A stretch of DNA of 64,000 bases from Thermodesulfobacteriota bacterium (GCA_963667625.1 OY763921.1:1132359-1196358); one strand, 5' to 3'. Shown: positions 37,782 to 58,832, numbered from the stretch's first letter. The notes: a model not told the origin generated them from the sequence alone. Made by a program: numbers and translations.

Positions 37782-37805
37782 CCTAAACACAAAGCTTCAG
37801 AGAAT

Positions 37806-39962: not shown

Positions 39963-39963
39963 T

Positions 39964-41411: not shown

Positions 41412-41421
41412 GATTTCCTCC

Positions 41422-42387: not shown

Positions 42388-42464
42388 TTCAGTTCTCCTC
42401 TTACAGAAAATCTATATATTGTTGTAGGGATTTTTCTTCCCACCACCCAATGGGTATAAATATA

Positions 42465-43544
42465 CGTGCTTTCAAGTTTGAAACGCAACAGGTGGATCAG
42501 CACCGAAGAGTACCTGATTCGGGGTTTTGAAGCCAAGGCATTGCCTCGGTCTGTTGTTCAATTTGTCCATAACTCTGTCTACATCTTCCTGGGTCAGTTT
42601 CCCGAAGTCCATTCCCTTTGGGAAGTACTGCCTTATAAGTCCGTTTGCGTTTTCACAGGACCCCCGCTCCCACGAGTGGTAAGGATGGGCGAAGTACCAC
42701 CGCGCCGAGAGCTCGCTTGATAGTTCCTCATGCAACGCGAACTCCTTTCCGTTATCGCACGTCACAGTCTCGAAGCGCTTGCGCATGGGTGTCGCCGCCT
42801 CGAGTATGGCCCGGGAGACGGAGGAAGCTTTTTTGTCCTCAGAGACCAGAATCATGCAATAGCGGGACTTGCGCTCGGCGAGGGTTACGAGCACCTTGCC
42901 TTTTTTTCTTGAGCCAAGCACAGTGTCGGCTTCCCAGTCTCCTGAGCGCACACGCTTATCCACCACTTCGGGGCGCTGGTCTATACAGACACGGTTTTTT
43001 ATATGTCCCCTGCGCGAGGGCGCTCCGTAGCGCTTTCTGCGCTTCTTGCGGCAGCGAAGGTGCGTGTGGAGATCTCCTCCATTAATCTTGTCTTCCCTTA
43101 CGTGATTGTAGATGCTCTGGTGGCTTACGCTGAGTCTTTCGTTTCGGGCAAGCCAGCAGCTTATCTGCTGGGGACTCCAGTCTTCTCCGAGCAGCAGCTC
43201 CACGCGAATCCAGGTTTGTTGGGGGATACGGTTTCCACAACAATTGCGCCTGCCCTCCGCAAGCCTCTGAGCCTGCTTGGGACGGTAACCCCGTTTGCCG
43301 CGGTTGCGGTGAAGTTCCCTGCTTATGGTGGATTTGTGCACGCCCAGGTGCCTTGCGGTCTGGGTCTGGTTGTGCCCTGCTTTGCGCAGGATGTAAATCT
43401 GGTATCTTTGTTCCAGGGTAAGTTGCTTTGGTTTTCTCATTCAAACGCTCCTTTTGATTTGGTCGTTAAAAGAGGGTTGCGAAGATTATCGCAACTTGCC
43501 CTTTTAATTTACATCAAAAGTTGCGTTTCAAACTTGAAAGCACG
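42465..43544. mobile_element. IS30-family insertion sequence (~1.08 kb) with 25-bp perfect terminal inverted repeats
   Basis: Left inverted repeat CGTGCTTTCAAGTTTGAAACGCAAC at 42465-42489. Its exact reverse complement GTTGCGTTTCAAACTTGAAAGCACG is at 43520-43544. A single transposase ORF lies between them. Confidence 0.85.
42472..43440 (-). CDS. IS30-family transposase
   Basis: 322 aa with an N-terminal HTH (LTLEQRYQIYILRKAGHNQTQTARHLGVHKSTISRELHRN) and a DDE core (WEADTV...D...E). Confidence 0.9.
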   Translation of the reverse strand: MRKPKQLTLEQRYQIYILRKAGHNQTQTARHLGVHKSTISRELHRNRGKRGYRPKQAQRLAEGRRNCCGNRIPQQTWIRVELLLGEDWSPQQISCWLARNERLSVSHQSIYNHVREDKINGGDLHTHLRCRKKRRKRYGAPSRRGHIKNRVCIDQRPEVVDKRVRSGDWEADTVLGSRKKGKVLVTLAERKSRYCMILVSEDKKASSVSRAILEAATPMRKRFETVTCDNGKEFALHEELSSELSARWYFAHPYHSWERGSCENANGLIRQYFPKGMDFGKLTQEDVDRVMDKLNNRPRQCLGFKTPNQVLFGADPPVAFQT

Positions 43545-43940
43545 ATACGATCGATAGGAAAATTTTCAAGTTTATTTTCGCATACATTCATATGTACATT
43601 ACAGGAGACTTCGAGTTAAGTATGGGCAAGTGAAAGAATCGCGGCTCAAGCCCTGTTTGCAGGGGTAGTGCACTTTAAAGTCAACGGGCGAATGAATTGA
43701 TTTGTTGTAAAATCGGAAGTAATCTTAATGTGTTAAAGAAATACACTTAACCTGTTGTGTAAATTTCGAGATCCACTTCTTACGCAGCAATTACGACAAC
43801 CGTTCTTGGGGCAAGGAGAAATTTGAAGAGCATCATATCGTATCCCGCAATGAAAACTGCATCCACATGGACAGAACATTCGGAAATAAGCCGGCAATTC
43901 CGAAAATAATAATCACAAAAAGAAAAAACAGGACTTTCTT

Positions 43941-44494: not shown

Positions 44495-45718
44495 TCATCT
44501 AAGACTGAGAGAACGAACATCTCTTATGAAACTCTCAAATGATTGCAAGTGAGGTCGAACGTTTTTAGGAAAAGAAGAAATTATTGGCGTAGGTACAACG
44601 AGTTGAACTTTGGCTTTTACCATTTCCGCGAATTGATTTTCAGACACGCCTTCTTGAAGGGTTAGCAAATGCTTGATTTTAATTCTGTCGGCTTCGTTAA
44701 GAATTTGACGCCATCTGTCTTTGCAGGTCGTTTTGACTGCCAGCATTTTCAGCCGATTAGATAAATGGCTCTTCGATTTATAAGCCTTTTCTGAAGGAAA
44801 AAGGAAATCAGGTCTTTTCCCTTTCTCCGATTCAGGTTGGTGAGTAAAGTCCTCATTTTCAATTAATCCTTCTTCCAGAAAAATACGCTTGGCATGTAAT
44901 TCAAGCGATCGACCTGAGCGCGCTTTCCTTCTCTGTAAAATTGACTGAGCCTTTAAAATGAAATCATCCAAATTTGCAAATCCCTTTTTAATGAAAGGAA
45001 GCTCAACAGCTTCTTCCACACTTCTAAAAACCTCGAATTCATATTGTCTTCTTTTAACGAGCCTAGAATCAGGCTTAATCCCAAGTGCACCTTTGATATC
45101 GATAGTTTTTTGAATGATTTCCATACCAGTTGGAAATTTCTCCAACCATTGTTCGGGGATTTCATCCGGGTATAGCCAACAAGAGCTTCTATCTGTTGGT
45201 CTTTGTTTTTCTACTTCATCCGAGGACCACACCTTTCCTGCTCCGGGTTCGACGGGGCCAATTCGGTTCTCAATAAAATCTTCTTCAGTTTCATGTCGAC
45301 AAACCCAGACATGGCAAGAGACAGCTTCTCTATTACTATCCAACTCAAAAGCAAAAACGCTCAAGGCTCCGGTACTCTCAGGATCAAGAAGAGGTGAATC
45401 CTGTCCTCCAAAATTTGTCAGTCGAGCTTCATCCCTACCTCTTTTAGGATTTCCATGAAATTTGTTGTTATACCATATTGCTCTAATTCTCCGACAATCA
45501 GTGTGAGAATCCACATACAAATCAAACCAGAGATCAGGGTTTTTTATTTCCTTTCTGTTCAGTAACGGGAAAATATCAAACAAAAAGTCTTTTGGAATAT
45601 AGGGTCCTGCCTGATGGGAACCATTAGCCAGAGTGTCATTTCCAGAAAGACGCTTTACATACCAGATGAAATCCGAGTTAGAAACCTCAGCTACCCAATC
45701 ACTCAACTCCATCTGCAT
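44495..45718 (-). CDS. Type IIE restriction endonuclease, EcoRII family (likely CCWGG-specific)
   Basis: 407 aa, alignable by eye along its length to EcoRII: YVKRLSGNDT..GSHQAG, IWVC..TEEDFIE, RMLAVKTTCKDRWRQILNEADRI, PDFLFPS. Confidence 0.9.
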   Translation of the reverse strand: MQMELSDWVAEVSNSDFIWYVKRLSGNDTLANGSHQAGPYIPKDFLFDIFPLLNRKEIKNPDLWFDLYVDSHTDCRRIRAIWYNNKFHGNPKRGRDEARLTNFGGQDSPLLDPESTGALSVFAFELDSNREAVSCHVWVCRHETEEDFIENRIGPVEPGAGKVWSSDEVEKQRPTDRSSCWLYPDEIPEQWLEKFPTGMEIIQKTIDIKGALGIKPDSRLVKRRQYEFEVFRSVEEAVELPFIKKGFANLDDFILKAQSILQRRKARSGRSLELHAKRIFLEEGLIENEDFTHQPESEKGKRPDFLFPSEKAYKSKSHLSNRLKMLAVKTTCKDRWRQILNEADRIKIKHLLTLQEGVSENQFAEMVKAKVQLVVPTPIISSFPKNVRPHLQSFESFIRDVRSLSLR

Positions 45719-46169
45719 CTTTACCCCTTATTTCGAAGAAAGGTGAGCGCCCTTTTAACCACGCAACACATTCATCAATAATTCTTTTTAAGTCTTTTTT
45801 GTGTTTGCCTTTTATAGCACACTCCCAAATAATTAAAACTCTCCAGCCTTTTTCAGATAACATTTGAATCGATTCTTCATCGTGGTATTTGTTTCGAGTT
45901 ATTTTCTGTTTCCAGAAATCAGGTCTGGTCTTAGGCCATTTAAATAAATGACAATTGTGGAGGTGCCAAAAACAACCATGTATAAAGACTACGGCCTTAA
46001 ACTTAGGAAAAACGATATCCGGCTTACCAGGAAGATCTCGGACGTGAAGCCTGTATCTGTATCCAAGTGCATGGATTGCCTTTCGAATAAAAAGTTCCGG
46101 TTTGGTGTTTTTACCTTTAATGCCGGACATCATCCGGCTTCTTTTCTCAGTCGATACTATATCAACCAA
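45699..46169 (-). CDS. vsr: Very-short-patch-repair endonuclease Vsr
   Basis: 156 aa with KPELFIRKAIHALGYRYRLH and FIHGCFWHLHNC. Overlaps the upstream C5-methyltransferase gene as dcm/vsr do in E. coli. Confidence 0.9.
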   Translation of the reverse strand: MVDIVSTEKRSRMMSGIKGKNTKPELFIRKAIHALGYRYRLHVRDLPGKPDIVFPKFKAVVFIHGCFWHLHNCHLFKWPKTRPDFWKQKITRNKYHDEESIQMLSEKGWRVLIIWECAIKGKHKKDLKRIIDECVAWLKGRSPFFEIRGKDADGVE

Positions 46170-47430
46170 CTGCTCTAAGTTCCCTTTGGTTGATTTGGAC
46201 TAATTGTTCTTCACTTTCAAGTATCCAAGGAACCATATGTCTTGCAATGGCCTCAACAACTGGAACAACAACTGCATTGCCAAACTGTTTGTAAGCTTGT
46301 ATATCAGAAACGGGGATAACAAACCGGCTTTCTGTGGGTTCATCAAATCCCATCAGTCGAGCACATTCCCTTGGAGTCAATCTACGAGGATTTCTTCTAC
46401 CATGTTGTTTTACCAGAATTTCGGAACCGTCTTTGTAATATCTTGCAGAAAGCGTTCTAGTAGTATCGTTATGGCCAACTAGACTGTAACCGAAGCCGTT
46501 ACCCTTTTTTCGATGCTTTTCTGCATAAGCCTGAAGATAATTCCAGAGTTTATCAGAAAGCGTATATTTAGGGAGAACCTTTCCTTCTCCATCAAGAAAC
46601 TTCCGGTTTTGCTCATTGAAAGTTTCAGAACCGTCTTCAGTATGAAGGATGTTGCCCAGCCTTGGAGTATCTATAGAATTAGGTTGGACAAAATTTTCAA
46701 AACTGAAATCGTTTTCTTCCAGAAAGCCAACTATGAAGATTCGTTCACGATGCTGTGGTACCCATGATTTAGCATCAATAACACGACAATGGACCTGGTA
46801 TCCCAATTCTTCTGTCAAAGTTCTATGGATAACCTTAAAAGTATTTCCTTTGTCATGACTAACCAAGTTTTTAACATTCTCAAGCAAGAACGTTTTTGGT
46901 TTGTGGTACTCAATGATTCGTGCTACATCAAAAAAGAGCGTGCCTTGTGCTTCGCATCGGAATCCGTGAGGACGATTGAGAGAATTTTTCTTTGATACTC
47001 CTGCAATGGAAAATGGTTGACACGGAAATCCAGCTAATAAGACATCATGCTTAGGAATGTCTTTAGCTTCTATTTGAGTGATGTCACCTACTACCTCATG
47101 GTCGCACAAATAATTGGCTTTATAGGTTTGTTGTGCATATTTGTCCCATTCACTAGTAAACACACATTTACCGCCAAGAGGTTCGAAGGCTCTCCTCAAA
47201 CCACCGATTCCAGCAAACAAATCAATAAATTTAAAGGCGGACTTTACAGGTGCATCATATGTTCTGGCAAGTTCCCTTAATACACGAATAGCTGCTTTTC
47301 TAGGTTTTGTTTCTCCTCGCTCCCATCGATACAAAGTCCTAGCAGAGAACCCTAATTCCTTGGCTAGTTCTTCGATTGACAATCCTGTTTTTTCTCTTAG
47401 GATTGAAAATTCATTGTTAGCATTCTGCAT
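46162..47430 (-). CDS. dcm: DNA cytosine-5 methyltransferase (Dcm/M.EcoRII-like) with N-terminal XRE-type HTH domain
   Basis: Motif I DLFAGIGG, motif IV GFPCQPFS, ENV motif. N-terminal LREKTGLSIEELAKELGFSARTLYRWERGE helix-turn-helix. Confidence 0.9.
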   Translation of the reverse strand: MQNANNEFSILREKTGLSIEELAKELGFSARTLYRWERGETKPRKAAIRVLRELARTYDAPVKSAFKFIDLFAGIGGLRRAFEPLGGKCVFTSEWDKYAQQTYKANYLCDHEVVGDITQIEAKDIPKHDVLLAGFPCQPFSIAGVSKKNSLNRPHGFRCEAQGTLFFDVARIIEYHKPKTFLLENVKNLVSHDKGNTFKVIHRTLTEELGYQVHCRVIDAKSWVPQHRERIFIVGFLEENDFSFENFVQPNSIDTPRLGNILHTEDGSETFNEQNRKFLDGEGKVLPKYTLSDKLWNYLQAYAEKHRKKGNGFGYSLVGHNDTTRTLSARYYKDGSEILVKQHGRRNPRRLTPRECARLMGFDEPTESRFVIPVSDIQAYKQFGNAVVVPVVEAIARHMVPWILESEEQLVQINQRELRAVG

Positions 47431-47631: not shown

Positions 47632-50600
47632 ATGAATGAATCAGGAATACTCACCTATAAAGACAGAGAATCTTTACGACGAAGGATCAGGGAGTCTAAT
47701 TCAGACTCATCAATTTCAAATGAAAAACTGATCCTGCATCTGTCTTCTGTTCTACAAAACCAAGGGGTAGAAAGTGAAGAGGAAAAAATATTTCAAGAAT
47801 ACACTTTTGATCTGATAAATGTTTTGAGGACAGCAGACAACAAAGAAGCATCTGAAATAGCCCAAGCAGTTTTAAATTTTATTGCAACAAATTTCCAAGC
47901 GGATGCTGAAGAACGATGGAAATTGCCAGCGAAACAAAGAGTTTATATCACGAGTGTAGCGATTAAAGAGATCTCGGAAATCATTAATTTGCCTAAAGCC
48001 AATGAAATACATGGATTAACTGTAAAAGAAAGGGCTGAAGCGGAAAAACTATTGTTAAGGTTTGCATCAGTTTCGGACAGTGTTGATTTAAAAAATCGCA
48101 ATCATGCCAAAAATTTTATTGAATTGTATGACAGGGAAAAACAATCCCGTTTAATGACTAGGTACTTAAAAAACATAAAACTTCTTGTTAGAGCTTTAGA
48201 GAGTGGTGATTTAAATACAGAGGACAGAGCATGGGCTAGGGGTGCTTTGAGTTATATCAGACTTAACAGAGATGTTATACCTGATGAGTATGGATTGATT
48301 GGGGTGCTTGATGATATGTACATTGCAAATTTGGCTGTTGGTCTTATTCGGCCAAGTGCACCACCGCTAACAGAACTAGTACTGGAATTCAGAAAAATTT
48401 GGCCGATTTTAAATGGACTGATTTTTTCTGAGGACAAGTCAGAGTATAGGTATACAGATATTGCATCCATTAATTCGGCGTTGGTCTGCATGCCATTGAG
48501 GGGTGAGAATCAATTACGAACAGCTCTTGTGCTTCCGTTTTCTGGGTGTACACCCAACATTATCGCAATTGCCGCTGTCTTTGGTGCAATATCTGTTCTA
48601 GCTAAAAAGGTGAAAGATGGTCCCGATTTCAAGATTGGAGACTTGGTTCGGGTTGATAATACAGCTGTCGCAACATATGGCGGAATATATGTATTTGAAG
48701 GGAAAGAATATATACGGTTGAATCAAGTTACTAAAAAGGCCAGCGAGAAGCAACCGGAACAAACAGTGACGAATCTAATTCCGTTGCAAGACAGTGCAAG
48801 ACTATGCCCGGCGAAGGCAGGATCCAAAACGCAAGGTGAAATTCAAACGTACTTGAAGAGTACAGAAAGAGAGCTTTCGGCAATTGAAAATCTTTTACAT
48901 TTGCCTCATCCACTTCAGTTTCACAGTATTGATTCTCATATATGGTTAATCTCATCTGCTGACAGAATGCGTTCTTTAGCAAAAGACTTAAGGGTCCACG
49001 GCCAGCGCCTTATTGATGTTTTCCCGATGGGACATATTAAAAGGGATGGAACTTGTGAAGCTTGGAGTGCAAGATTTGGAGAATCCGAATGTGTTCTGAT
49101 AACCGTAACTGATCTAGATTTAGCAGCAGAAATTTTGGAAGAAACAGAAGGAACAGATAGAGATTTGGTGATAGCTGATCTGTCAGGACCGAACAGGAAT
49201 CGTATCTCTTCCCTTGAAAGGGTTTTTGATCTTGATCTAAATGTCCTTTGTATTGCAGAAGAACGAGATGAGGGCTTAATTTCTATTGTCGAGCAATATA
49301 ATCCTGACATATGGGAGTGGAGCGGGGAGGAAGTAAGTGAGATAGGAAAATTCCCGCAATCTCAATCTGACAGCACCCACCCATTTTACAAAAATGACGG
49401 TCGTTTGATAAGAGCGATTTCAGGAAATACCTCTACCAGAGCAGTTCAACTTGAGTCTCTTGAGTGGTGCCATGCAACAATTTCAGCTGCGACCAAGAAG
49501 GTTCCCCTGGAAACTGAAGATAAGACTTTAGAATTTCATGAAATATACAGAAAATTGTTTTCGATATTCCTTCGATTGACGAGGATGCCTTTCCAGGTTG
49601 ATCCTGAGTGGTTTGGAAATGATGAGAAAGTTCTTTCCACCTTGAAAGAGCAACTGGTTTCCAGTGTTTTTATGACAGAGGAAGAGAAAAAATCTCTAAC
49701 TGATATAAGTATGCTTATACACAAGGCGGGTCAAGCTCTGGTTAATGCAAACCCTAAATGGACTGAGATGTATGAAATACTGAAATCAAATCCCAAAGCA
49801 AAAGTATTAATTCATAATCCCGCTGTTATCCCTGATGAACTTCAAAGTGAAAAAAAATATATTCTGATGAAAGAAGCGTGTTCGACAGCATGTGAAATTT
49901 TGATTGTGCCTTACTGGCCGGGGAAAGACAAAAGTTGGAAGTTGTTGACCGAAGCTGACGTTAAAGAAATAGTTTTTTTATTGTATCCCTATGAGGCTGA
50001 TTGGTATAAGAGTTTTGTTCGCCATAGAGAGTTATCACGACGTAGTAGAACCGAAAGACGCAATAGTCAGGCGATATTTCCAAAAGTTGGAACTTGGCCG
50101 AAAAAAACAGTAATGGAAAAACTGAGTGACAACTTGAGCCAAACCCCACATGAACTAGATCTTGTGGAGCTGAACAATAGCTACAGAAGAACCCGGATTA
50201 TCAAATCAATTGAATCAATGGAAAAAGATGTATCTGTTGAAACCCGTTTAGTTGGTTTTAGCGGAGGTGGGCATGCATTCTTGTCGTCAGGATATGAGGC
50301 TAGACTAGCCACTTACTTACTTGAAAGTGAAGCACATGCAAATACTGAAAATATTACTATAAGTTCTGCTGTGCTGGATAATCTTAATATAGGTGACGTG
50401 CTCATATTTCTAAAGGGGTCTGACAAAGATGCCATAAGAAAAATAGCGGATGAAAACTTACCTGAAGGGATGAGGAATTTGGCCAAGCTCTGGCAAACAG
50501 CACTTAAAGGTTATGTGGAAAAAGAAAAAGTGTCATTGGAAGAATTGGTATCGCTATTGTCTCAACAAGGCTGTAGAAAACATAGGGCAACGGTTAAGAA

Positions 50601-50934
50601 TTGGCTTGAGAGTGAAAATATTATTGGACCACGTAATGCCCATAGAGGGGATCTTGAAGCTATTGTCAATGTTACTAATGATAGTACGTTGTCAACAAAT
50701 TTACCACAATGTCAGAATGCAATCACCGAGGTATGGGGACAGCATTTAAAAGCAGCAAAGTTGTTAGCTAAAAATCTATTGGAAAAGATCAGCAGCAATA
50801 CAAAATTTGATATAGACATCGAAGAGCCTGTAGAAGTAATCGATGGGATACTGCTGGCGAAAATCGAGTTTATCGAGTCAGAAACAGTACATATCCCTCG
50901 ATCGAAAATAAACCGATTACTGGAGGAACTCTAA
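47632..50934 (+). CDS. Large hypothetical protein (1100 aa), first gene of a helicase + DUF1998 module. No P-loop or nuclease motif found. N-terminal DUF1232/YkvA-like segment.
   Basis: A long uninterrupted ORF in an AT-rich island. DVIPDEYGLIGVLDDMYIANLAVG resembles the YkvA/DUF1232 motif. No GxxxxGK[ST] anywhere. Confidence 0.5.
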   Translation: MNESGILTYKDRESLRRRIRESNSDSSISNEKLILHLSSVLQNQGVESEEEKIFQEYTFDLINVLRTADNKEASEIAQAVLNFIATNFQADAEERWKLPAKQRVYITSVAIKEISEIINLPKANEIHGLTVKERAEAEKLLLRFASVSDSVDLKNRNHAKNFIELYDREKQSRLMTRYLKNIKLLVRALESGDLNTEDRAWARGALSYIRLNRDVIPDEYGLIGVLDDMYIANLAVGLIRPSAPPLTELVLEFRKIWPILNGLIFSEDKSEYRYTDIASINSALVCMPLRGENQLRTALVLPFSGCTPNIIAIAAVFGAISVLAKKVKDGPDFKIGDLVRVDNTAVATYGGIYVFEGKEYIRLNQVTKKASEKQPEQTVTNLIPLQDSARLCPAKAGSKTQGEIQTYLKSTERELSAIENLLHLPHPLQFHSIDSHIWLISSADRMRSLAKDLRVHGQRLIDVFPMGHIKRDGTCEAWSARFGESECVLITVTDLDLAAEILEETEGTDRDLVIADLSGPNRNRISSLERVFDLDLNVLCIAEERDEGLISIVEQYNPDIWEWSGEEVSEIGKFPQSQSDSTHPFYKNDGRLIRAISGNTSTRAVQLESLEWCHATISAATKKVPLETEDKTLEFHEIYRKLFSIFLRLTRMPFQVDPEWFGNDEKVLSTLKEQLVSSVFMTEEEKKSLTDISMLIHKAGQALVNANPKWTEMYEILKSNPKAKVLIHNPAVIPDELQSEKKYILMKEACSTACEILIVPYWPGKDKSWKLLTEADVKEIVFLLYPYEADWYKSFVRHRELSRRSRTERRNSQAIFPKVGTWPKKTVMEKLSDNLSQTPHELDLVELNNSYRRTRIIKSIESMEKDVSVETRLVGFSGGGHAFLSSGYEARLATYLLESEAHANTENITISSAVLDNLNIGDVLIFLKGSDKDAIRKIADENLPEGMRNLAKLWQTALKGYVEKEKVSLEELVSLLSQQGCRKHRATVKNWLESENIIGPRNAHRGDLEAIVNVTNDSTLSTNLPQCQNAITEVWGQHLKAAKLLAKNLLEKISSNTKFDIDIEEPVEVIDGILLAKIEFIESETVHIPRSKINRLLEEL

Positions 50935-50992
50935 TCTAAGGATGATCCCCAAACAATTTACCCTGACATTAGACGATGAAGGAGACTAGTTC

Positions 50993-52909
50993 GTGAAGGA
51001 CAAAAAAGAAAAAACACTCTCACCTGTGGAGGAATTTCGTGCGGTGTTGATTGACCAGTTACATAAGGAACTGGTAGGCCCCAACCCCCTTCTGGGCGAC
51101 TTGGAAGAGATATTGGATGAATCTCCTAGGCAAAGATATTGTGCGGGCATACTGTTTCCTTCAAATGTTCTAAATAAGGAAACAGAAGATTATGACGAGA
51201 ATGGTAAGGAGATCAGGGAGATGGAAGGACATGAAATTGATCTTGCCAAAAAAGAAGTTCGTCACTCCAAGGCCGGAGAAGCAGAGACTCTGGATGAGTA
51301 TGATGACACAATCACAATGGCAAACACCTATATGCCTTCTGCAATGGGAATTTCCTTTTTATGCGATAATTCGCCTAGAGGTCTTAAAGTGGTGACGAGT
51401 GCTGCTATCTATAAAACAGCAAAGCGTAAAGTTGAAGAGCGCGAATTTAACACATGGATCCGTAATCCTCTGGATTTGCCGGTATTGACGATTAGTCTTG
51501 AGGTTGATAGCAAAGATATAAGAATCGTTGAGCAAAAACTGAGAGGAAACCTTAAAATTAAAGCTGTCATCAGACGCAGAAATGATGACTCACGGCTCGT
51601 GACAGTCTCTATGTATAACACGAAAGTTAATTCGAGCTCTGGTCCTGTCTCTGTTACAGATTGTTTTTTTCAGTCCAGTTTTAAAGTTTTCTCACCTGAT
51701 GGTTCAACTATTTTCAGAGCCTATCAAGAAATGGCAACAGAATCTGAAGATCCCGAAGAAACAAGCCTTCGTTTACTTTATAGAAACCGACTTTCCTTTG
51801 GGGTCGGGCATGGTTGTGCTGTCAAGTGGTCCAAGGCACAGGGTGGCAAGGTAGACTGTGTTGAAACAGACTCACTTCCTTTTCAAAAAATTCCACCTGT
51901 CGAACCCCGGGGTGGCCAAGGCGAAGAATTAAACATGGTTAGCTTGGCTGGAGGTCTGGATGGTAAGAAACAAGAAATAGTCCCAGACATATTACAGGCG
52001 CTTGTGAACGACTATTCGTCGTGGATAGAGGGCATTTTAACAGAAGCAGCTAGGTTTCAATCTCCCCTGAAGGAAGCAGCCGACAGACATATAGATCTAT
52101 GCCAGAAAGCCCGCGACAGAATACAAGACGGAATTGCCGTTCTGAAATCTAACCCGGTTGCGCTGAGTGCATTTTGTATGGCAAACAAAGCGATGCTTAT
52201 GCAACAGTATCACAACAAAAGAAGCTCTAGGTCTACCAATGAAGGGTGGTTAGATATCAGTAAGGACTATAACCCTGTAGAACCTTGGATGGGACGATGG
52301 CGTACTTTTCAGTTGGCATTTATTCTCATGAATCTTGGCACGGTAACACCCGATGCTAAAGGCAAATTTTCACCAGAACGTAATCTGGTGGATCTGATCT
52401 GGTTCCCGACAGGTGGCGGTAAAACAGAAGCTTACTTAGGTTTGGCGGCATACACCATATTTCTTAGGCGACTTTTACAACCCAAGAATGCGGGTTGCAC
52501 TGTATTGATGCGTTACACACTTAGATTGTTAACAGCTCAGCAGTTTCAAAGAGCGGCTGCTTTGATCTGCGCTTGCGAATCTTTAAGGTGTAAATCACCG
52601 GAATTGCTGGGTGAAGAAGTTATTTCAATTGGTCTATGGGTAGGTCAGTCTTTAACACCCAATACACGTAAAGAAGCTATAGGAGCACTAAATGAATTAG
52701 TAAAAAATCCTCATGGCGGTGAAAACAAATTTCAGTTATTAAAATGTCCATGGTGTGGTACGAGGCTGGATGAAGAAGGCAAGCTGGGTTACAGAGTAAC
52801 GGGAAAAACACCAAAAAGAATACTGTTTGTTTGTCCTGAAGATCGTTATAGCGCGACAATCAAGATTGAACTGTTGCGACAATCAAGATTGAACTCTGGG
52901 TGTCGCTGA
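50993..52909 (+). pseudogene. SF2 helicase (DrmA-like), N-terminal fragment, interrupted by an IS21-family insertion after helicase motifs I/Ia
   Basis: A large N-terminal domain followed by motif I WFPTGGGKTEAYLG and motif Ia LRLLTAQQF. The ORF then reads into the insertion-sequence terminal repeat and stops. Confidence 0.7.
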
Positions 52910-52941
52910 TTGTGAGACGATACCGGCATATCTGACAGATA

Positions 52942-53796
52942 TCAATCTCCAGTTTTCGAGGTCAAACCCTTCGAGTTTTTCTCGGTAGCGTATTTCGCGG
53001 GTCTGCCCCGTTTTTTCTTCACCTCCTCCTTCTTTTTCTCCATCGCATGACGCAACCTGTAGCTCTCCACGTTCATTTCAAGGATTACGCAGTGATGCAC
53101 AAGGCGATCCACTGCCGCCACAGCCGTATTTTCGTCAGGAAATACGTTTTTCCATTCCTCAAAGGGCTGATTCGCCGTAATAAGCAGTGACCTGCTCTCA
53201 TAACGGTTCGATATAAGCTCAAACAGCACCCTGGTTTCATCCCGATCTTTGCGTACGTACGCAAGATCATCGAGAATCAGCAGGTCATAACGGTTGAGTC
53301 GCTCAAGCATACTCTCCAGACGAAGCTCTCTATGGGCCATCTGAAGTCTCTGCACAAGGTCCGTCGTGCGGGTGAACATAACTCTTTTGCCCTGTTCCAC
53401 CAAGGCAAGCCCTATGGCCGAGGCAAGATGACTCTTCCCCACCCCCGGAGGTCCGAAGATTATCACGTTGTGACCTCCTTTGAGCCATGAATCGGTTGAA
53501 GCAAGCGCTCTTACCCTTGCCATGGATATAGTGGGAACCACAGAGAAGTCGAAGTTATCAAGACTCTTGCCGGCTATGAGATGAGCTTCGCTCAGGTGGC
53601 GCTGTATTCTCCTGCGCCCTCGCTCCGCGAGTTCGAGCTCGGCAAGCGCCCACAGCAGTCTTCCCGCCGGCCACCCCTCCCTGTCCGCCCGCTCGGCGAA
53701 CTGTTCCCAGGTGTTCTTTATGGCAGGCATTCTGAGTTCGGAGAACATCAGGGTAAGTCCCAGAGAATCTATTTTTGTGTTTTCTTTCGTGTTCAT
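52942..53796 (-). CDS. istB: IS21-family helper ATPase IstB
   Basis: 284 aa, Walker A GPPGVGKSHLA, DnaC-like AAA+. Confidence 0.9.
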   Translation of the reverse strand: MNTKENTKIDSLGLTLMFSELRMPAIKNTWEQFAERADREGWPAGRLLWALAELELAERGRRRIQRHLSEAHLIAGKSLDNFDFSVVPTISMARVRALASTDSWLKGGHNVIIFGPPGVGKSHLASAIGLALVEQGKRVMFTRTTDLVQRLQMAHRELRLESMLERLNRYDLLILDDLAYVRKDRDETRVLFELISNRYESRSLLITANQPFEEWKNVFPDENTAVAAVDRLVHHCVILEMNVESYRLRHAMEKKKEEVKKKRGRPAKYATEKNSKGLTSKTGD

Positions 53797-53822
53797 TGTT
53801 TTTCTCCTTTTTCTTCAATAAG

Positions 53823-55316
53823 TCAAAATAACGGCGTGTAGCTTGAAAGATCTCCCGCCTGGACGTCCACTTCCCTCATCGGCCCCGCTTTCATTGTGAA
53901 ACGCTCCTTGAGTCCGTCCATATCGGGCAGTTCTCCAGAGTTTACCGTGTCCCTTATCGCAAGCGCCAACTGGTCTTCACAGCTCTGCTCATGGGCCAGG
54001 GCAAGCAGTTTTACCGTGATTCTGCACGCCTCGCGCCTTCCAAGAAGTGAAAGAGCGAGCTCAAAACACTTTTTGTATTCCTCCCTTGGAAACAGTTCGT
54101 TGCGGTACACAAGATTCATAAGCGCTCCCGGCTTTTTCTTCAGAGAGTGAACCACATGATGGTAATTCACCTCGTAAACCGTTTTATCGCCGTCTTTTCG
54201 CCTTCTGGGAAGCGTCAGCTGATGACGGCCCCCGAAGTGCAGCTCTATGTTCGCATCATATACACGGGCCTCAAGACGGTGCCCTATGAGGCGGGAGGGA
54301 ACGGTATAGAACACTCCTTTGAGCAGAAAGCCGCCTGATGAGGTTACTGTCACGCTGTGGCGCTCATGCCAGGGCGCGGAACCCGCGGGAAGGGACCTCA
54401 GGGTTTTTCTCTCCGCTTCTATGCGCTCCGTTCTGCGGGCATTTATGTTCGAGGTCACCTCGGCAACAAAGTCGCGGTACTCTTCGATTTCCGCAAAGTC
54501 CCGGGACCCCCGAAGCTCTAAAGCGTCAGCTATTTCCCTTTTGAGATGACCGTGAGCCCCCTCTATGGCCCCGTTCTCATGGGCAACGCCCTTGTTGTTT
54601 CTCGTAGCTTCCATTCCGTAATGAGCGCAAAGATCCTCATATCTTCTGGTCATGTCTTTTTTCTGATCCTTGCTGAGGTTCTTGAATGCCGCGGAGAGTG
54701 AATCGGTGCGGTTCTCCGCGGGAGTTCCGCCGAGAGTCCGCAATGCCGCTTCAAGCCCCTGGGAGAAGGCGACGAAGCTTTCTCCTCCCTCAACTACGCT
54801 TGCGTGGACAAAGCCCGACCACGGGAGTCTGAAGTGAAAGAGCATATGATCAAACTGTCTTCTGGCGATTGTGACCTCAGCATCTCTCATCCTGGTAAAA
54901 TCGGAGATGCCCATATCTCCGGCTTTCTTGTTCTGGCGGAATATGACCTCTTTATCGGGGCCGTGTTCGGTTCTCCAGGTCCTTATACGCCTCTCAAGGG
55001 TGCGGCGAACCCCTGAGTCAAGCTCCGGATTGTTGCGAAGAAGCTCGTAAAAGACCGTAGAGGGCCTTATATCGGGACAATTACGAAGAATGGGGAGTAC
55101 CTGGGAGTCCCAGATGCCTTCAAGAGGGTCTGGGCGACGCCTCCCTCGGGGCTTTCTCTCCTTTTTCTGCTCTGTTCCAAGTTCTTTTTTGATCTGAAAG
55201 CCTGATGTGCGACCGAAGCCCGACTTGGCCGCAGCCGTTTCTGCTGAGAGTTTTTCTTCGGTGATGAGTTTCATGAATTTCCTCCTTTGTTCATCGGTTA
55301 TGTGTTGACCCGGCAT
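53823..55316 (-). CDS. istA: IS21-family transposase IstA
   Basis: 497 aa with an N-terminal HTH and a DDE integrase core. Confidence 0.9.
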   Translation of the reverse strand: MPGQHITDEQRRKFMKLITEEKLSAETAAAKSGFGRTSGFQIKKELGTEQKKERKPRGRRRPDPLEGIWDSQVLPILRNCPDIRPSTVFYELLRNNPELDSGVRRTLERRIRTWRTEHGPDKEVIFRQNKKAGDMGISDFTRMRDAEVTIARRQFDHMLFHFRLPWSGFVHASVVEGGESFVAFSQGLEAALRTLGGTPAENRTDSLSAAFKNLSKDQKKDMTRRYEDLCAHYGMEATRNNKGVAHENGAIEGAHGHLKREIADALELRGSRDFAEIEEYRDFVAEVTSNINARRTERIEAERKTLRSLPAGSAPWHERHSVTVTSSGGFLLKGVFYTVPSRLIGHRLEARVYDANIELHFGGRHQLTLPRRRKDGDKTVYEVNYHHVVHSLKKKPGALMNLVYRNELFPREEYKKCFELALSLLGRREACRITVKLLALAHEQSCEDQLALAIRDTVNSGELPDMDGLKERFTMKAGPMREVDVQAGDLSSYTPLF

Positions 55317-55487
55317 TGAAACCTCCTGTTCAAAGAAAATGAACAGAAGGCTTTACCAAATCAGCGACGAATACTGAAGGAAATTCTTCCCCCGGGATGG
55401 TGTCTGAAACTCCAGTCGGGCTACGCCCTCCTTCCGTTTCAGACACCATCCTCAGAGTTCAATCTTGATTGTCGCGCTAGTTCGAAG

Positions 55488-56972
55488 TTGATTGACGCGG
55501 TAGATCGTTGTGAGTTTAGTTCCTTAAAGAATCCATTGCCTGTTCTTGTTACGGATGAAGACATCTATGAGAACCCACCTGCATTACTTATAGGAACTGT
55601 GGATAAATTTGCCATGCTTGCTTGGCGTGGCCAAGCTTCCAGCCTGTTTGGAAAGGGTAAAAATGTCTTGCCACCGGAGTTGATAATTCAAGATGAACTA
55701 CACCTCATATCTGGCCCTCTGGGAACCTTTGTAGGTCTATATGAGGGAGTGATAGAACTGCTTTGTACAAGAAAAGATGGAACAAAGCCGAAAATTGTGG
55801 GTTCTACAGCCACAATAAGAAGAGCTGGTGATCAGTGTAAAGCACTCTATAATCGGGAAACTTTTCAATTCCCACCTCCAGGTATTGATTCCTCTGACTC
55901 ATACTTTGCTAAGGAGAATAATAACACTCCCGGTAGAATTTATATGGGCGTGTTTCCTACAGCCTCTCCATCTTTTGTCACAGCATTGGTTCGGACTGCT
56001 TCAAGTGTGTTGCAGGGAGTGAAAACTATAGATCTACCCGAGGGAGCGGATGAGAGCGTTCGGGATCCTTATTGGACTTTGGTTGAGTATTTCAACAGCT
56101 TGAGAGAATTAGGTCGGGCATTGACGTTACTACAGGCAGACATACCTGAATATATGTGGGTAGTTGCCAGTCGTTTAAAACTGCCAAAGGAAAAAGTTAG
56201 AAATCTTTACTCCATTGAAGAGCTTACTAGTCGCAAAAGCGCACAGGAAATTCCTGAAATCTTGGAAACGCTTAGTTTTTCTTGGCCTTTTGAAAAAGAA
56301 TCAAAAAAACGCCCCATTGATGCCCTGCTGGCCACAAACATGTTTTCTGTTGGTGTAGATGTCGATAGGCTGGGGTTGATGTCAATTGTGGGGCAACCTA
56401 AAAGCACATCTGAATATATTCAATCCAGTAGCCGGGTAGGACGTTCAAAGGATGCGCCCGGTTTAGTGATAGTTATGTATAATCCGGGCAAACCCCGTGA
56501 TCGTTCTCATTTTGAACAATTCCGAACTTATCACTCGGCACTTTATCGTTACGTTGAACCTACCAGTGTTACGCCCTATTCGATACCGGTTATGGAGCGT
56601 GCTTTACATTCATTGTTAGTGATTATTGGTCGTCATATAGCTGGTTGGAAAGATCCAGCAGATGCGGACTTTGATTCTCCCGAGGTCAATACAGCTTTGA
56701 GTGCTATAGTTGATCGATGCAAGGCAATTGACCCAGATCATCTTGAGATACTTGAAGAAAGATTCGAAGATTTAAAAAAACGTTGGTTAACTGCAGGTTT
56801 TGATACTTGGGGTACTCTTGGCAATCCTGATAAGTATAGACTACCGTTGATGTACCCAGCCGGCTCATCAGAATTAAGTGACTGGAACAGCAACAGTTGG
56901 GCAACTCCTAGCTCTATGCGGTTTGTCGACACAGAGTGTGAAGCAGAGGTTATCCATATTTACCCAGTATAG
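55488..56972 (+). pseudogene. SF2 helicase (DrmA-like), C-terminal fragment. Motif II DELH onward plus the helicase C-terminal domain.
   Basis: LIIQDELHLISGPLG (motif II), TATIRRAGDQ (motif III-like), LLATNMFSVGVDVDRLGLM and SSRVGRS (motifs V/VI). It continues the ORF interrupted at 52.9 kb. Confidence 0.7.
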
Positions 56973-56984
56973 AGAGGAAGTCTG

Positions 56985-58832
56985 ATGGCCAACAGAGAAA
57001 GAAGAATACGTAAGTCACAAATGATCTCACCTTACGGTGTTGGTGCAATAGTTGAATTTCCCAAAGAAACGTTAATGCATGCTGGCCTAGATGCTTGGAA
57101 TCCAGCAGAAGAACAAACCTTGTCTGATGATCGATTGGCTCGGCGACTTAAAGTCAAAATGTTTTACGAACCAGCACAAGCACCGGAGAAGAACAAACCG
57201 GGGAAGTGCATTCCTTTTGTCAGATTCCCTTTATGGCATGTTTGTCCTCGTTGTCGTGCCATGAAAAAGGTAGGATGGAATGCGAGACACCGACCCGTTT
57301 GTGACAGCGATCTAAAACCGCTATTTAACGGGTTGCCTTGCAGCAGATTTACTAAAAAGTGGCAAAAACCGATTATGGTGCCGGTGCGTTTTGTGATGGC
57401 TTGTAATCATGGCCATGTGGTTGACTTTCCTTGGATTGAGTGGGCTCATTCCTCCAAAGGGAAAAAGATTAGGAAAGGAACCGAGGTGTGTGACAGTCCC
57501 AAATTACGTCTCAGGGTTACAGGTCGGTCTGGATTAACAGGACTAAGTGTTAAATGTGAGAATTGTGGTACAGGTCGATCTCTGGCAGGTGCCACAGGTC
57601 CTAAAACGTTCATAGATTTCGGCTGTGGTGGTGAACGTCCTTGGTTAGGGCCAGAAGCAAGAGAAGACTGTAAGAGCGGAGTTCCACCTAGAGTTACTCA
57701 TAGGGGTGCAACCAATATTTATTTCCCAAAAGTAATTAGTTCAATTTTGATACCCCCTTATTCGACACATGTTAGACGGATAATCAGTAGACCCAAAAAC
57801 TGGAGCTTGATTAATAATAGCGTAGATGCTGACAGTAATATTAATGAAGAACAGGTCAAGTTGCTTTCTAAAATTTGGGAAATAGAATTTGATGATCTCT
57901 TGACAGCTATCAGAGACAAGCTAAGTGGTGAAACTCGACAGTCAGATCAAACAGAGGATGAGTATCGCCACGAAGAATACAAAGCTTTCAAGGTTGGGAA
58001 AAATCGCAAAACTACTGATGATCTGAATGTAAATCCACAAGATCTGTCCACCTATGACCAAGATATTGCACGGTATTTCAAAACCATCATTTTGGTGGAG
58101 AAGCTCACTGAAACCAGAGTCCTGACTGGCTTTACAAGAATAAATCCCCCTGATTCAGGGAACGTAACCGCCACTAGGACTGCTTCGCTATCAAAACAAC
58201 AGAAAGACTGGTTACCGGCAGTACGAGGGTACGGTGAGGGTATATTTTTCACAATTAAACAGTCGATTTTGGACGAATGGTCAAAGAATGACATGGTCTT
58301 AAAAAGGGTTAAGAAGCTAAACGATCGTCAGAATAAGATCCGTACTAGTCAGGGATATGCACCACGAGAGATTATGCCCGCATTCGTTTTGCTGCATAGT
58401 CTTGCTCATATCTTAATTAACCGTTTAAGCTTTAATTGTGGCTATGGAAGCTCGTCGTTAAGGGAAAGAATTTATTGTCGTCAAGAGGGAGAAGGAAAGA
58501 TGGCAGGGGTTTTGATATACACGTCTGCATCTGATTCAGAAGGAACTCTTGGTGGTTTGGTAAGACAAGGCCAACATGGGCGCTTCGAATCGGTACTTAG
58601 ACAGTCCTTGCTTGATGCTCTGAATTGTTCCTCAGACCCATTGTGTATAGAAAGTGAGGGGCAGGGGGCAGATGCACTGAACCTTGCAGCTTGTCACGCT
58701 TGCGCACTGTTACCAGAGACGAGTTGTGAAGAAGGCAATCGCTTGCTCGACAGATTGCTACTTGTGGGCATGCCTCAACAATATGATGTAGGATACTTTG
58801 GTAGTCTAGTAAATAATTTGTTAAGTGGCTAA
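56985..58832 (+). CDS. DUF1998-domain protein (DrmB-like)
   Basis: 615 aa. A Cys cluster CPRCRAMKK...CENCGTGRS and a C-terminal CHACALLPETSCEEGN. It follows the helicase gene after 12 nt, as in the DISARM drmA-drmB pair. Confidence 0.6.
   Translation: MANRERRIRKSQMISPYGVGAIVEFPKETLMHAGLDAWNPAEEQTLSDDRLARRLKVKMFYEPAQAPEKNKPGKCIPFVRFPLWHVCPRCRAMKKVGWNARHRPVCDSDLKPLFNGLPCSRFTKKWQKPIMVPVRFVMACNHGHVVDFPWIEWAHSSKGKKIRKGTEVCDSPKLRLRVTGRSGLTGLSVKCENCGTGRSLAGATGPKTFIDFGCGGERPWLGPEAREDCKSGVPPRVTHRGATNIYFPKVISSILIPPYSTHVRRIISRPKNWSLINNSVDADSNINEEQVKLLSKIWEIEFDDLLTAIRDKLSGETRQSDQTEDEYRHEEYKAFKVGKNRKTTDDLNVNPQDLSTYDQDIARYFKTIILVEKLTETRVLTGFTRINPPDSGNVTATRTASLSKQQKDWLPAVRGYGEGIFFTIKQSILDEWSKNDMVLKRVKKLNDRQNKIRTSQGYAPREIMPAFVLLHSLAHILINRLSFNCGYGSSSLRERIYCRQEGEGKMAGVLIYTSASDSEGTLGGLVRQGQHGRFESVLRQSLLDALNCSSDPLCIESEGQGADALNLAACHACALLPETSCEEGNRLLDRLLLVGMPQQYDVGYFGSLVNNLLSG

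What the first reader, a model, noticed from the sequence alone, without database searches (positions are those of the whole stretch)
52850..55480. IS21-family element inserted inside the helicase gene between motifs Ia and II, so the module is probably inactivated in this strain
The helicase ORF runs through motifs I and Ia, then reads into a 22-25-bp sequence that recurs three times: two direct copies at 52851-52872 and 52877-52900, and one inverted copy at 55451-55477. Between them lie istA and istB on the opposite strand. The helicase frame resumes at 55488 with motif II (IIQDELHLISGPLG). IS21-family elements are known to carry multiple terminal repeats and to target sequences resembling their own ends. 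That fits the tandem left-end copies. Disruption of a defence gene by an insertion sequence suggests the system carries a cost, or simply ongoing decay.
Basis: seen in the sequence. Interest (0 to 1): 0.55.

Follow-up and report, generated by a model that had tools for sequence, protein, structure and literature searches.

The report
IS21-type element splitting DISARM helicase
A 2.66-kb jumping gene of the IS21 family has recently landed, cleanly and precisely, in the middle of the helicase gene (drmA) of a DISARM anti-phage system in a Dadabacteria genome, almost certainly switching that system off; this is a well-documented but ordinary kind of event.

Summary
The finding is real and its main interpretation holds. 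Window 52847-55504 is a complete 2658-bp IS21-family element on the minus strand: istA 53823-55316, istB 52942-53796. Each end has a 3-nt tip plus two 23-nt direct repeats spaced 23 bp apart, so there are four repeat copies, not three. It is flanked by a 4-bp target duplication (TCGT). Ten other copies, at least 99.9% identical and lying in at least five other contexts, fix these ends. Removing the element plus one TSD copy restores one 1105-codon frame. That protein passes the NCBIfam DISARM DrmA model and aligns without gaps to 14 intact homologues; the closest found is 95% identical and the same length. The break falls inside the second knuckle of a conserved zinc ribbon (CPWC…CPEDR|C), between helicase motifs Ia and II. 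dN/dS shows no decay since the insertion, so it is recent.

Corrections:
- The right end is 55504, not about 55477.
- The "start" at 55488 lies inside the IS.
- The tandem repeats belong to the element; they are not a target feature.

Also noted:
- A sister strain has drmA intact but drmE split by a different IS (IS1595 type).
- The element's tips are TCT…ATA, not the usual TG…CA.

The phenomenon is known; the IS is a new family member.

The parts
47632..50934 (+). drmE (1100 aa), intact
   Evidence: NF038316 DrmE_fam 246.8 bits, cutoff 80. Same length as DrmE in L005 and L015.
50993..52846 (+). drmA 5' fragment (codons 1-618): N-terminal region, motif I (52406-52435), motif Ia (52505-52543), first zinc knuckle CPWC (52745-52756), first part of the second knuckle
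   Evidence: The ORF then reads 20 IS-encoded codons to a stop at 52909.
52843..52846 (.). target-site duplication, copy 1 (TCGT)
   Evidence: Flush with the shared 2658-bp block defined by 10 other copies. Single-copy in the intact alleles L014, L015 and L016.
52847..55504 (-). complete IS21-family insertion sequence, 2658 bp, 52% GC
   Evidence: Ten other copies at 99.9% identity or more share exactly this block in different flanks. GC.
52847..52895 (+). istB-proximal terminal inverted repeat: tip TAT (52847-52849) plus two 23-nt direct repeats (52850-52872, 52873-52895)
   Evidence: Same layout in relatives L018 and L019.
52942..53796 (-). istB, AAA+ helper ATPase (284 aa)
   Evidence: PF01695 217.5 bits. 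NF038214 273 bits, cutoff 200. PDB 8q3w IS5376 IstB E=9e-45, with Walker A GPPGVGKS aligned.
53823..55316 (-). istA, transposase (497 aa)
   Evidence: NF033546 IS21 family transposase 188.8 bits, cutoff 160. The AF2 model's top four PDB fold hits are IS5376 IstA (8q4d, 8b4h), E 1e-8 to 2e-7.
55392..55455 (-). strong hairpin between the istA-proximal repeats and the istA start
   Evidence: -47.6 kcal/mol, z = -8.7. Present in L018 with one compensatory change and in L019 with the inner segment flipped.
55456..55504 (+). istA-proximal terminal inverted repeat: two 23-nt repeats (55456-55478 inner, 55479-55501 outer and degenerate) plus tip AGA (55502-55504)
55505..55508 (.). target-site duplication, copy 2 (TCGT)
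55509..56972 (+). drmA 3' fragment (codons 619-1105): Cys619 of the zinc ribbon, motif II QDELH (55689-55703), motif III, helicase C domain
   Evidence: PF00271 Helicase_C hit.
56985..58832 (+). drmB (615 aa, DUF1998/MZB), intact, 13 nt downstream of drmA
   Evidence: NF038324 496.9 bits, cutoff 240. PF09369.
44495..47430 (-). EcoRII endonuclease (44495-45718), Vsr (45699-46169), HTH-C5 cytosine methyltransferase (46162-47430); all intact. A complete R-M module whose methylase may also serve as DrmMII

Best explanation
A currently or very recently active IS21-family insertion sequence (2658 bp; istA then istB; each end a 3-nt tip plus two 23-nt IstA-binding repeats) transposed into drmA. drmA is the SF2 helicase of a class 2-like DISARM locus (drmE-drmA-drmB) in a Candidatus Dadabacteria chromosome. 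Integration used a 4-bp staggered cut at TCGT, between codons R618 and C619. That is inside the second knuckle of a conserved four-cysteine zinc ribbon, which lies between helicase motifs Ia and II. The gene is now two pieces. A 638-aa product carries the Walker A motif but no DEAH box, and ends in 20 IS-encoded residues. The 3' piece carries motifs II-VI but has no native start. Neither piece can form a complete ATPase site, so the DrmAB motor, and with it DISARM interference, should be lost. The antisense 2.66-kb insert is also likely to be polar on drmB. The neighbouring EcoRII/Vsr/C5-methylase module and two CBASS operons stay intact. Shown: the element, its ends, the TSD, exact restoration of the frame, intact alleles elsewhere, and the recency of the insertion. 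Inferred: loss of defence function and polarity.
For: IS identity:
- IstA: NF033546 188.8 bits against a cutoff of 160. IstB: NF038214 273 bits against 200, and PF01695.
- IstB aligns to PDB 8q3w at E=9e-45.
- The IstA model's best fold matches are IS5376 IstA, 8q4d and 8b4h.

Ends and mobility:
- Four 23-nt repeats at 23-bp spacing, matching the L1/L2 and R1/R2 organisation and 23-bp spacing described for IS21 (PMC10122671).
- Ten further copies at 99.9% identity or more share exactly 2658 bp in at least five other contexts, with clean 4-bp TSDs at CAAC, ATTG and CAAT.

Insertion into one gene:
- Excision gives a 1105-aa ORF with no stop.
- That ORF scores 985.4 bits on NF038325 DISARM_DrmAS (cutoff 950), with one stretch (aa 16-669) crossing the junction at aa 618. 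It also matches PADLOC DrmA and PDB 7s9v DrmA at E=7e-227.
- The alignment to 14 intact homologues has no gap at the junction, and C585, C588, C614 and C619 are invariant.
- Intact alleles of identical length exist, up to 95.3% identity (P0364). P0367 reads CPEDRCEFSS exactly as reconstructed.
- The DNA of L004, L005, L014, L015 and L016 is colinear through the site, with overlaps equal to the TSD.

Recency:
- One synonymous nucleotide differs from all other IS copies.
- drmA dN/dS is 0.13, against 0.15 for the intact-vs-intact control. Lineage-specific amino-acid changes are 24 vs 21.

Loss of function:
- DrmA ATP hydrolysis, DNA binding and the DrmAB heterodimer are reported as essential for defence (PMC9142583).
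- No above-chance promoter signal was found at the IS boundaries.
Against: No functional data exist for this organism.

A split helicase could in principle reassemble, or the 3' piece could be expressed from an unrecognised promoter; Dadabacteria promoters are not covered by the consensus scan.

The only independent sighting of this exact insertion (P0366 and P0365, on a 1.86 Mb NCBI/ENA contig) is probably the same assembly as the window. Population frequency and assembly correctness are therefore not independently confirmed.

No same-strain (above 99% identity) empty allele was found.

The element's tips are TCT…ATA rather than the family-typical TG…CA.
Confidence: 0.9

Rival explanations
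1. Selected, recurrent knock-out. DISARM is costly or auto-toxic in this Dadabacteria lineage, or it blocks useful DNA uptake. Different insertion sequences are therefore repeatedly fixed in its genes, and the drmA hit is adaptive rather than a neutral accident.
For: The sister strain L014 has the same chromosomal neighbourhood and an intact drmA. Its drmE, however, is split by a 2479-bp IS1595-type element with 29-bp perfect inverted repeats and an 8-bp TSD (TCATGAAA). L016 and L017 diverge from drmA at about aa 754, and both assemblies break 55 nt later, as happens at a repeat. L015 has a frameshift in drmA. The strain keeps EcoRII R-M and two CBASS systems, so DISARM may be dispensable.
Against: At least eight full-length DrmA alleles exist in the same clusters. 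The IS has also landed next to housekeeping genes, so the genome simply has a high IS load. The L015 frameshift sits in a homopolymer run and may be a sequencing error. The L016 tail is unidentified. No frequency or fitness data are available. The low-GC island may just be an easier target.
Confidence: 0.2
2. Assembly artefact. A multi-copy IS was wrongly threaded into drmA by the assembler, and the real chromosome has an intact gene.
For: Other contigs with this IS are clearly chimeric or recombinant: L002, L003 and L011 mix the flanks of two sites. The window's own contig could not be confirmed independently.
Against: A flush 4-bp duplication of the target (TCGT) is present on both sides, single-copy in the intact relatives, and the reading frame is restored exactly. 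A mis-join would not create a TSD. The related contigs have long-read-assembler-style names, and a 2.66-kb repeat is easily spanned by such reads (an inference).
Confidence: 0.03
3. The insertion does not abolish function. The two DrmA pieces are both made, the 3' piece from the TTG at 55488 or an internal Met using transcription from within the IS. They then reassemble into an active, or differently regulated, split helicase.
For: An ORF does start at the TTG at 55488 inside the IS end and runs in frame into the 3' fragment. The break lies in an inserted zinc-ribbon module rather than inside a RecA core motif.
Against: The break destroys an invariant four-cysteine motif: C614 and C619 end up on different polypeptides. 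No promoter-like signal above chance was found at the boundary. All 14 homologues, and thousands of hits of about 1100 aa, are single-chain.
Confidence: 0.04

Closest known systems
IS21 / IS5376 (prototype IS21-family elements; structures 8b4h, 8q4d, 8q3w)
   Same: The gene order istA then istB. An IstB AAA+ helper (E=9e-45 to IS5376 IstB). An IstA fold with two HTH domains, a DDE core and a beta-barrel. Terminal inverted repeats each built of two direct repeats spaced 23 bp apart. A short TSD. A size of about 2.6 kb.
   Different: IstA is too diverged for any sequence match to the solved IstA, even with a profile, and Pfam rve is not detected. The TSD is 4 bp, or 3 bp at two sites, against 5 bp reported for IS5376. 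The tips are 5'-TCT…ATA-3' rather than TG…CA. A strong hairpin (-47.6 kcal/mol) lies between the left repeats and istA.
Alphaproteobacterial plasmid IS21-family elements (one annotated as 'ISBj11 family') in PLSDB
   Same: They are the best DNA matches in the plasmid collection, covering the istA-istB coding region, and are annotated as IS21-family transposase and helper ATPase.
   Different: Only about 64% nucleotide identity over 43-47% of the element, with no end similarity. The next-closest IstA in 5.8 billion proteins is 85% identical. By the usual ISfinder-type thresholds (from my own knowledge) this is a new IS.
Natural IS insertions that inactivate defence genes (e.g. IS transposition into cas genes, PMC10359306)
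   Same: A simple IS insertion inside a core enzyme gene of an immune system, with the rest of the locus intact.
   Different: The system hit here is DISARM, in an uncultivated Dadabacteria lineage. No selection experiment or phenotype is available.
DISARM: class 1 Serratia DrmAB (PDB 7s9v/7s9w), and class 2 as first described in Bacillus (the latter from my own knowledge, Ofir et al. 2018)
   Same: DrmA, DrmB and DrmE all pass NCBIfam cutoffs. The DrmA zinc-ribbon motif CPWCGT…C…RCEFS is conserved in the solved protein.
   Different: No DrmC/PLD gene is present in the neighbourhood. The adjacent C5 methylase belongs at least as well to an EcoRII/Vsr R-M module. drmA is interrupted.

Membership tests
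IS21 family insertion sequence | IstA transposase matching the family model or fold | tested here: met
   NF033546 scores 188.8 bits against a cutoff of 160. The top four PDB fold hits of the AF2 model (pLDDT 70) are IS5376 IstA, E 1e-8 to 2e-7. Sequence-only PDB searches and Pfam rve were negative.
IS21 family insertion sequence | IstB AAA+ helper ATPase encoded immediately downstream of istA on the same strand | tested here: met
   NF038214 273 bits (cutoff 200) and PF01695 217 bits. PDB 8q3w at E=9e-45, with Walker A and B aligned. The gap between the istA stop and the istB start is 26 nt.
IS21 family insertion sequence | Terminal inverted repeats each composed of at least two direct repeats (L1/L2, R1/R2), about 23 bp apart | tested here: met
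   Units at 52850-52872 and 52873-52895, and at 55456-55478 and 55479-55501, with 23-nt spacing at both ends. The literature description is in PMC10122671. Relatives L018 and L019 have the same layout.
IS21 family insertion sequence | Short target-site duplication (4-8 bp) | tested here: met
   4 bp at four unrearranged sites: TCGT/ACGA, CAAC, ATTG, CAAT. Cross-matching 3-nt repeats at two sites that look recombined.
IS21 family insertion sequence | Termini 5'-TG…CA-3' (3' CA is the cleaved dinucleotide) | tested here: not met
   All 11 copies end 5'-TCT…ATA-3' in istA orientation, giving 3' ends …GA and …TA. The 82% relative L018 is the same. The 68% relative L019 has TGT…ACA. This feature is typical of the family rather than defining.
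IS21 family insertion sequence | Catalytic DDE triad intact | tested here: inconclusive
   D139, D205 and E247/E252 are invariant in 12 homologues down to 53% identity, and their spacing is plausible. They were not mapped residue by residue onto the solved IstA, and the model has low confidence at 239-255. Recent mobility to at least six sites argues the enzyme works.
DISARM (class 2-like) | DrmA SF2 helicase | tested here: met
   Only after in-silico excision: NF038325 scores 985.4 bits against a cutoff of 950. Also matches PADLOC DrmA and PDB 7s9v. In the window as it stands the gene is split.
DISARM (class 2-like) | DrmB (DUF1998/MZB) next to DrmA | tested here: met
   NF038324 496.9 bits against a cutoff of 240, plus PF09369. 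It lies 13 nt downstream of drmA.
DISARM (class 2-like) | DrmE | tested here: met
   NF038316 scores 246.8 bits against a cutoff of 80.
DISARM (class 2-like) | DrmMII C5 cytosine methyltransferase belonging to the system | tested here: inconclusive
   The adjacent divergent MTase matches DrmMII (451 bits) but matches type II MTase better (519 bits). It sits in an EcoRII-Vsr-MTase module. Relatives L005 and L015 have a different MTase-Vsr arrangement.
DISARM (class 2-like) | DrmC (PLD-family nuclease) | tested here: not met
   No PLD or DrmC hit among the ORFs from 37 to 60 kb, nor in the sister locus L014. It is reported as non-essential (PMC9142583).
DISARM (class 2-like) | Confers phage resistance | not testable with these tools
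   Requires experiments.

The most novel reading that the evidence does not exclude
DISARM is being knocked out repeatedly and independently by different mobile elements in closely related Dadabacteria: an IS21-type element in drmA here, an IS1595-type element in drmE in a sister strain, and possibly a third element at drmA codon ~754. This would point to selection against an active system, or an on/off population-level immunity dynamic. In addition, the IS21-clade element doing it transposes efficiently with non-CA 3' termini (…GA and …TA), which would mean IstA end cleavage is less strict than the IS5376 model suggests.
Probability: 0.2. Interest if true: 0.5.

Novelty: new member of a known kind. 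Interest (0 to 1): 0.27.

Why it matters
For annotating this genome, the two "helicase" ORFs should be called one IS-disrupted drmA pseudogene, and the DISARM system scored as non-functional, while the EcoRII R-M and CBASS systems remain.

More generally, it is a clean natural example of an IS switching off a defence system. The ends, the TSD and the pre-insertion sequence can all be reconstructed to the base. Together with the independent IS1595 hit in drmE of a sister strain, it gives a small natural experiment on defence-system turnover in an uncultivated, small-genome lineage (about 1.8 Mb).

The element is an undescribed, evidently active IS21-family member with atypical tips. That could interest people working on IstA end recognition.

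None of this changes current concepts.

Tried and rejected
1. An 8-bp TSD. From the window alone I first read AGATCGTT (52840-52847 and 55502-55509) as an 8-bp TSD around a 2654-bp element. Ten other copies show the shared block is 2658 bp and the TSD is 4 bp. The extra AGA and T are chance identities between the target and the IS tips.

2. The genome-contig scan with the 20-mer gave one hit, L006 in a Sulfotelmatobacter MAG. It is a lone 22-mer with no Ist genes. About one chance 20-mer match is expected in 2 x 596 Gb, so I rejected it.

3. Two JGI metagenome scans both returned nothing: one for the exact empty site and one for the IS outer end.

4. An exact-protein look-up of DrmB and a cluster look-up of PNPase found nothing on record. 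The window's own contig was therefore identified only indirectly, through P0365 and P0366.

5. PDB sequence searches with IstA alone and with a 12-sequence profile gave no hit even at E=10. This was resolved by structure prediction and Foldseek.

6. The promoter and terminator scan of 52600-57100 gave counts at the chance level, so no claim is made about outward promoters.

7. The L015 drmA truncation is one extra G in AAAGGGGGAAAAA and is not counted as a real disruption.

8. The tail of L016/L017 after the divergence point matches nothing I hold, so that element is unidentified.

9. I looked for a target consensus, or similarity to the IS ends, among the insertion sites. Nothing convincing emerged beyond a weak T-richness after the TSD (by eye only).


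Full report
**1. What is in the sequence**

ORF listing and direct reading show a 638-codon ORF on the plus strand (50993-52909). It carries helicase motif I (PTGGGKTEAY, 52406-52435) and motif Ia (52505-52543), then runs into repeated sequence. Two minus-strand ORFs follow (52942-53796 and 53823-55316), and then a plus-strand ORF (55488-56972) containing QDELH (55689-55703).

The 20-mer GCGACAATCAAGATTGAACT occurs three times in the 64-kb window, all here, against 0 in 100 shuffles. The repeat finder adds a fourth, degenerate unit at 55479-55501. It also shows that the units are 23 nt long and 23 nt apart at both ends:
- 52850-52872 and 52873-52895
- 55456-55478 and 55479-55501

Together they form a 55-nt compound inverted repeat.

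**2. What the two minus-strand genes are**

- The 284-aa protein is an IstB. It scores 217 bits on PF01695 and 273 bits on NF038214 (cutoff 200), and matches the solved IS5376 IstB at E=9e-45 with the Walker motifs aligned.
- The 497-aa protein passes NCBIfam's IS21-family transposase model (NF033546, 188.8 bits against 160), but it is divergent. Pfam rve is not detected, and PDB sequence searches fail even with a 12-sequence profile.
- I therefore predicted its structure (pLDDT 70; two N-terminal helical bundles, an alpha/beta core, a beta-barrel and a helical tail). The four best PDB matches are all IS5376 IstA (8q4d, 8b4h; E 1e-8 to 2e-7), followed by retroviral integrases.

The element is an IS21-family member by both proteins, by gene order and by end architecture. 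The IS21 literature describes TIRs made of L1/L2 and R1/R2 direct repeats spaced 23 bp apart, with two complete repeats needed for integration (PMC10122671).

**3. Exact ends and target duplication**

From the window alone, an 8-bp direct repeat (AGATCGTT) suggested a 2654-bp element. Exact-protein look-ups of IstA recovered ten other copies in ENA and Logan assemblies. All share exactly 2658 bp at 99.9% identity or more. Nine of them differ from the window copy by a single base (53242, synonymous in istB); L010 has two mismatches and one gap.

The flanks differ from copy to copy, and all four bases occur next to the block. The element is therefore window 52847-55504. In istA orientation it reads 5'-TCTACCGCG…GCGCTATA-3'.

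The true duplication is 4 bp:
- TCGT here (52843-52846 and 55505-55508)
- CAAC, ATTG and CAAT at three other unrearranged sites

The apparent 8-mer is the TSD plus chance identity of the target (GAAGA|TCGT|T) with the element's last three bases and first base. Sister alleles read GAAGACCGTTGT and GAAAACCGTTGT at this site.

Counting the window, at least six distinct insertion sites are documented, plus one orphan flank. Some short-read contigs mix the flanks of two sites, either as assembly chimeras or as recombinants. Two inverted copies on one 1.82 Mb contig have flanks that cross-match by 3 nt, which looks like an IS-mediated inversion of about 330 kb.

**4. Whether the two helicase pieces are one gene**

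Yes. Removing 52847-55508 gives a 3318-nt ORF with no stop.

The evidence that this is a single DrmA:
- The 1105-aa product scores 985.4 bits on NF038325 (DISARM helicase DrmA, cutoff 950), with one aligned stretch (aa 16-669) crossing the junction at aa 618.
- It matches several PADLOC DrmA models.
- As a profile, it matches the solved Serratia DrmA 7s9v at E=7e-227.
- A homology search found thousands of single-chain relatives of about 1100 aa. The closest are exactly 1105 aa.
- In a 15-sequence alignment there is no gap anywhere near the junction, and C585, C588, C614, P615 and C619 are invariant.

The insertion therefore lies between R618 and C619, inside the second knuckle of a CPWC…CPxxxC zinc ribbon that sits between motifs Ia and II. 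The same motif is present in the solved DrmA (CPWCGT…YCGDKKGRCEFS).

Cluster members give closer intact alleles:
- P0364 is 95.3% identical, 1105 aa, with no gaps.
- P0367 reads CPEDRCEFSS, identical to the reconstruction.

At the DNA level L004, L005, L014, L015 and L016 are colinear with the window through the site. The two alignment blocks overlap by just the duplicated bases.

P0366 and P0365, on a 1.86 Mb NCBI/ENA contig, are the same two fragments, including the IS-encoded tail …YSATIKIELLRQSRLNSGCR. That contig is probably the window's source genome.

**5. Context**

The neighbours of drmA are:
- DrmE (NF038316, 246.8 bits) and DrmB (NF038324, 496.9 bits).
- Upstream and divergent: an HTH-C5 methylase, Vsr and a complete EcoRII endonuclease.

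The methylase fits type II MTase models slightly better than DrmMII, so its assignment to DISARM is ambiguous. No DrmC/PLD gene is present. DrmC is reported as non-essential.

GC content:

| Region | GC |
|---|---|
| DISARM block | 42% |
| R-M module | 40% |
| Flanking housekeeping DNA | 48-50% |
| The IS | 52% |

PNPase is 99% identical to a protein named Candidatus Dadabacteria.

**6. Age and consequence**

dN/dS of the rejoined drmA against the intact L014 allele is 0.13 (5' part 0.15, 3' part 0.08). That is the same as an intact-vs-intact control (0.15) and drmB (0.13). With L005 as outgroup, the window lineage has 24 unique amino-acid changes against 21 for L014. The fragments contain no stops or frameshifts. 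The insertion is therefore recent, and the gene has not begun to decay.

On function, the 5' product lacks the DEAH box and everything after it, and the 3' piece lacks Walker A. [quoted passage not shown]

Consensus promoter and terminator matches around the boundaries are at chance level. There is no evidence for IS-driven expression of the 3' fragment or drmB, and polarity on drmB is plausible but unproven. Loss of DISARM function is thus a strong inference, not a demonstration.

**7.

- There are four terminal repeat units, two per end, not three.
- The element spans 52847-55504.
- The TTG at 55488 lies inside the element. Helicase sequence resumes at 55505/55509.
- The tandem repeats are intrinsic IstA-binding repeats, found in every copy whatever its flank. 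They are not a sign that the element targeted a sequence resembling its own ends. IS21 is reported to lack strong target specificity.

**8. Beyond the finding**

- The sister locus L014 has the same AhpC-EcoRII-Vsr-MTase-DrmE-DrmA-DrmB-CcmH-MiaA-PNPase neighbourhood and an intact drmA.
- Its drmE is split by a 2479-bp IS1595-type element. That element has 29-bp perfect inverted repeats and an 8-bp TSD (TCATGAAA, single-copy in the window at 49536-49543), and carries an N6/N4 methylase gene.
- L016 and L017 diverge from drmA at about codon 754, and both assemblies end 55 nt later. This is probably a third insertion, by an unidentified element.

This raises the possibility of recurrent DISARM knock-outs, but the data do not separate selection from a high IS load. 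IS disruption of immune genes has precedent (PMC10359306).

The element's tips (TCT…ATA) are shared with an 82% relative. A 68% relative has the canonical TGT…ACA, so the 3' terminal dinucleotides here are GA and TA rather than CA. This is a minor curiosity, given the element's evident mobility.

**9. Verdict**

This is an ordinary but unusually well-resolved IS insertion into a defence gene. The IS is a new member of a known family: the next-closest IstA is 85% identical, and the best plasmid DNA match is 64% identical. Interest is modest.

Noticed in passing
L014 5981-8459 (equivalent to window 49536-49543 in drmE): In a sister strain with an intact drmA, drmE is split by a 2479-bp IS1595-type element. 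It has 29-bp perfect inverted repeats (CGCAATAAGTAGTTAGGGGCTTGACAATC) and an 8-bp TSD (TCATGAAA), and carries an N6/N4 methylase gene. This is an independent IS hit on the same DISARM locus.
   Followed up: yes
L016 4958-5012 and L017 tail (equivalent to window ~55921): Another relative's drmA diverges at about codon 754 into unrelated sequence (AGAAGTGGACCCCAAAAAATAGACAGCGTC…). Two independent assemblies break 55 nt later. This is probably a third mobile-element insertion.
   Followed up: partly
window 52847-52849 and 55502-55504; L018; L019: The IS tips are 5'-TCT…ATA-3', giving 3' ends GA and TA, in all 11 copies and in an 82% relative. A 68% relative has the canonical TGT…ACA. This is unusual for a family in which the 3' CA is the cleaved dinucleotide.
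   Followed up: partly
window 55392-55455 (minus strand): A very stable hairpin (-47.6 kcal/mol, z = -8.7) lies between the istA-proximal repeats and the istA start. It is conserved in L018 with one compensatory G-C to U-A change. In L019 the inner ~29 nt are the exact reverse complement and are followed by T8, which looks like a terminator. It may insulate istA from read-through transcription.
   Followed up: partly
L007 and L008 (ena:ERZ25084387:ctg36522c, ~1.006 and ~1.336 Mb): Two inverted copies of the IS sit on one 1.82 Mb contig. Neither has its own TSD, but their flanks cross-match (AGC and ACG). This is the pattern expected after an inversion of about 330 kb by recombination between the copies. 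The TSDs at these sites would be 3 bp, not 4.
   Followed up: partly
window 36906-43921: About 7 kb that is absent from the sister locus L014. It holds a type III CBASS operon on the minus strand: cyclase 41422-42387, HORMA 40893-41411, TRIP13 39964-40896, NucC ~39240-39962. It also holds a second cyclase (37985-38785) with a 1-TM effector (37230-37781), and an IS30-like transposase (42472-43440).
   Followed up: partly
window 44495-47430: EcoRII endonuclease, Vsr and an HTH-C5 methylase form a complete R-M module abutting DISARM. The methylase may be shared with DISARM or may have replaced its DrmMII. Relatives L005 and L015 have a different, co-oriented 512-520-aa methylase plus Vsr instead.
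   Followed up: partly
window 50935-50992 versus L004 6149-6445, L005 and L015: The drmE-drmA spacer is 58 nt in the window. It is about 297 nt longer in three relatives, and about 88 nt longer in L014. This is a deletion series in the intergenic region; a 79-aa ORF is called there in L015.
   Followed up: no
window 59246/59311 versus L014 15593-16233: The sister strain has an extra ~640 bp with an HTH_31 gene between ccmH and miaA, which the window lacks.
   Followed up: no
L015 ~9258 (equivalent to window ~55655): The drmA allele P0367 is truncated by one extra G in an AAAGGGGGAAAAA run. This is either a real frameshift or a homopolymer sequencing error.
   Followed up: partly
L002, L003, L011: Short-read contigs join the left flank of one IS insertion site to the right flank of another. 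They are assembly chimeras or recombinants, a caution when inferring TSDs from such contigs.
   Followed up: yes
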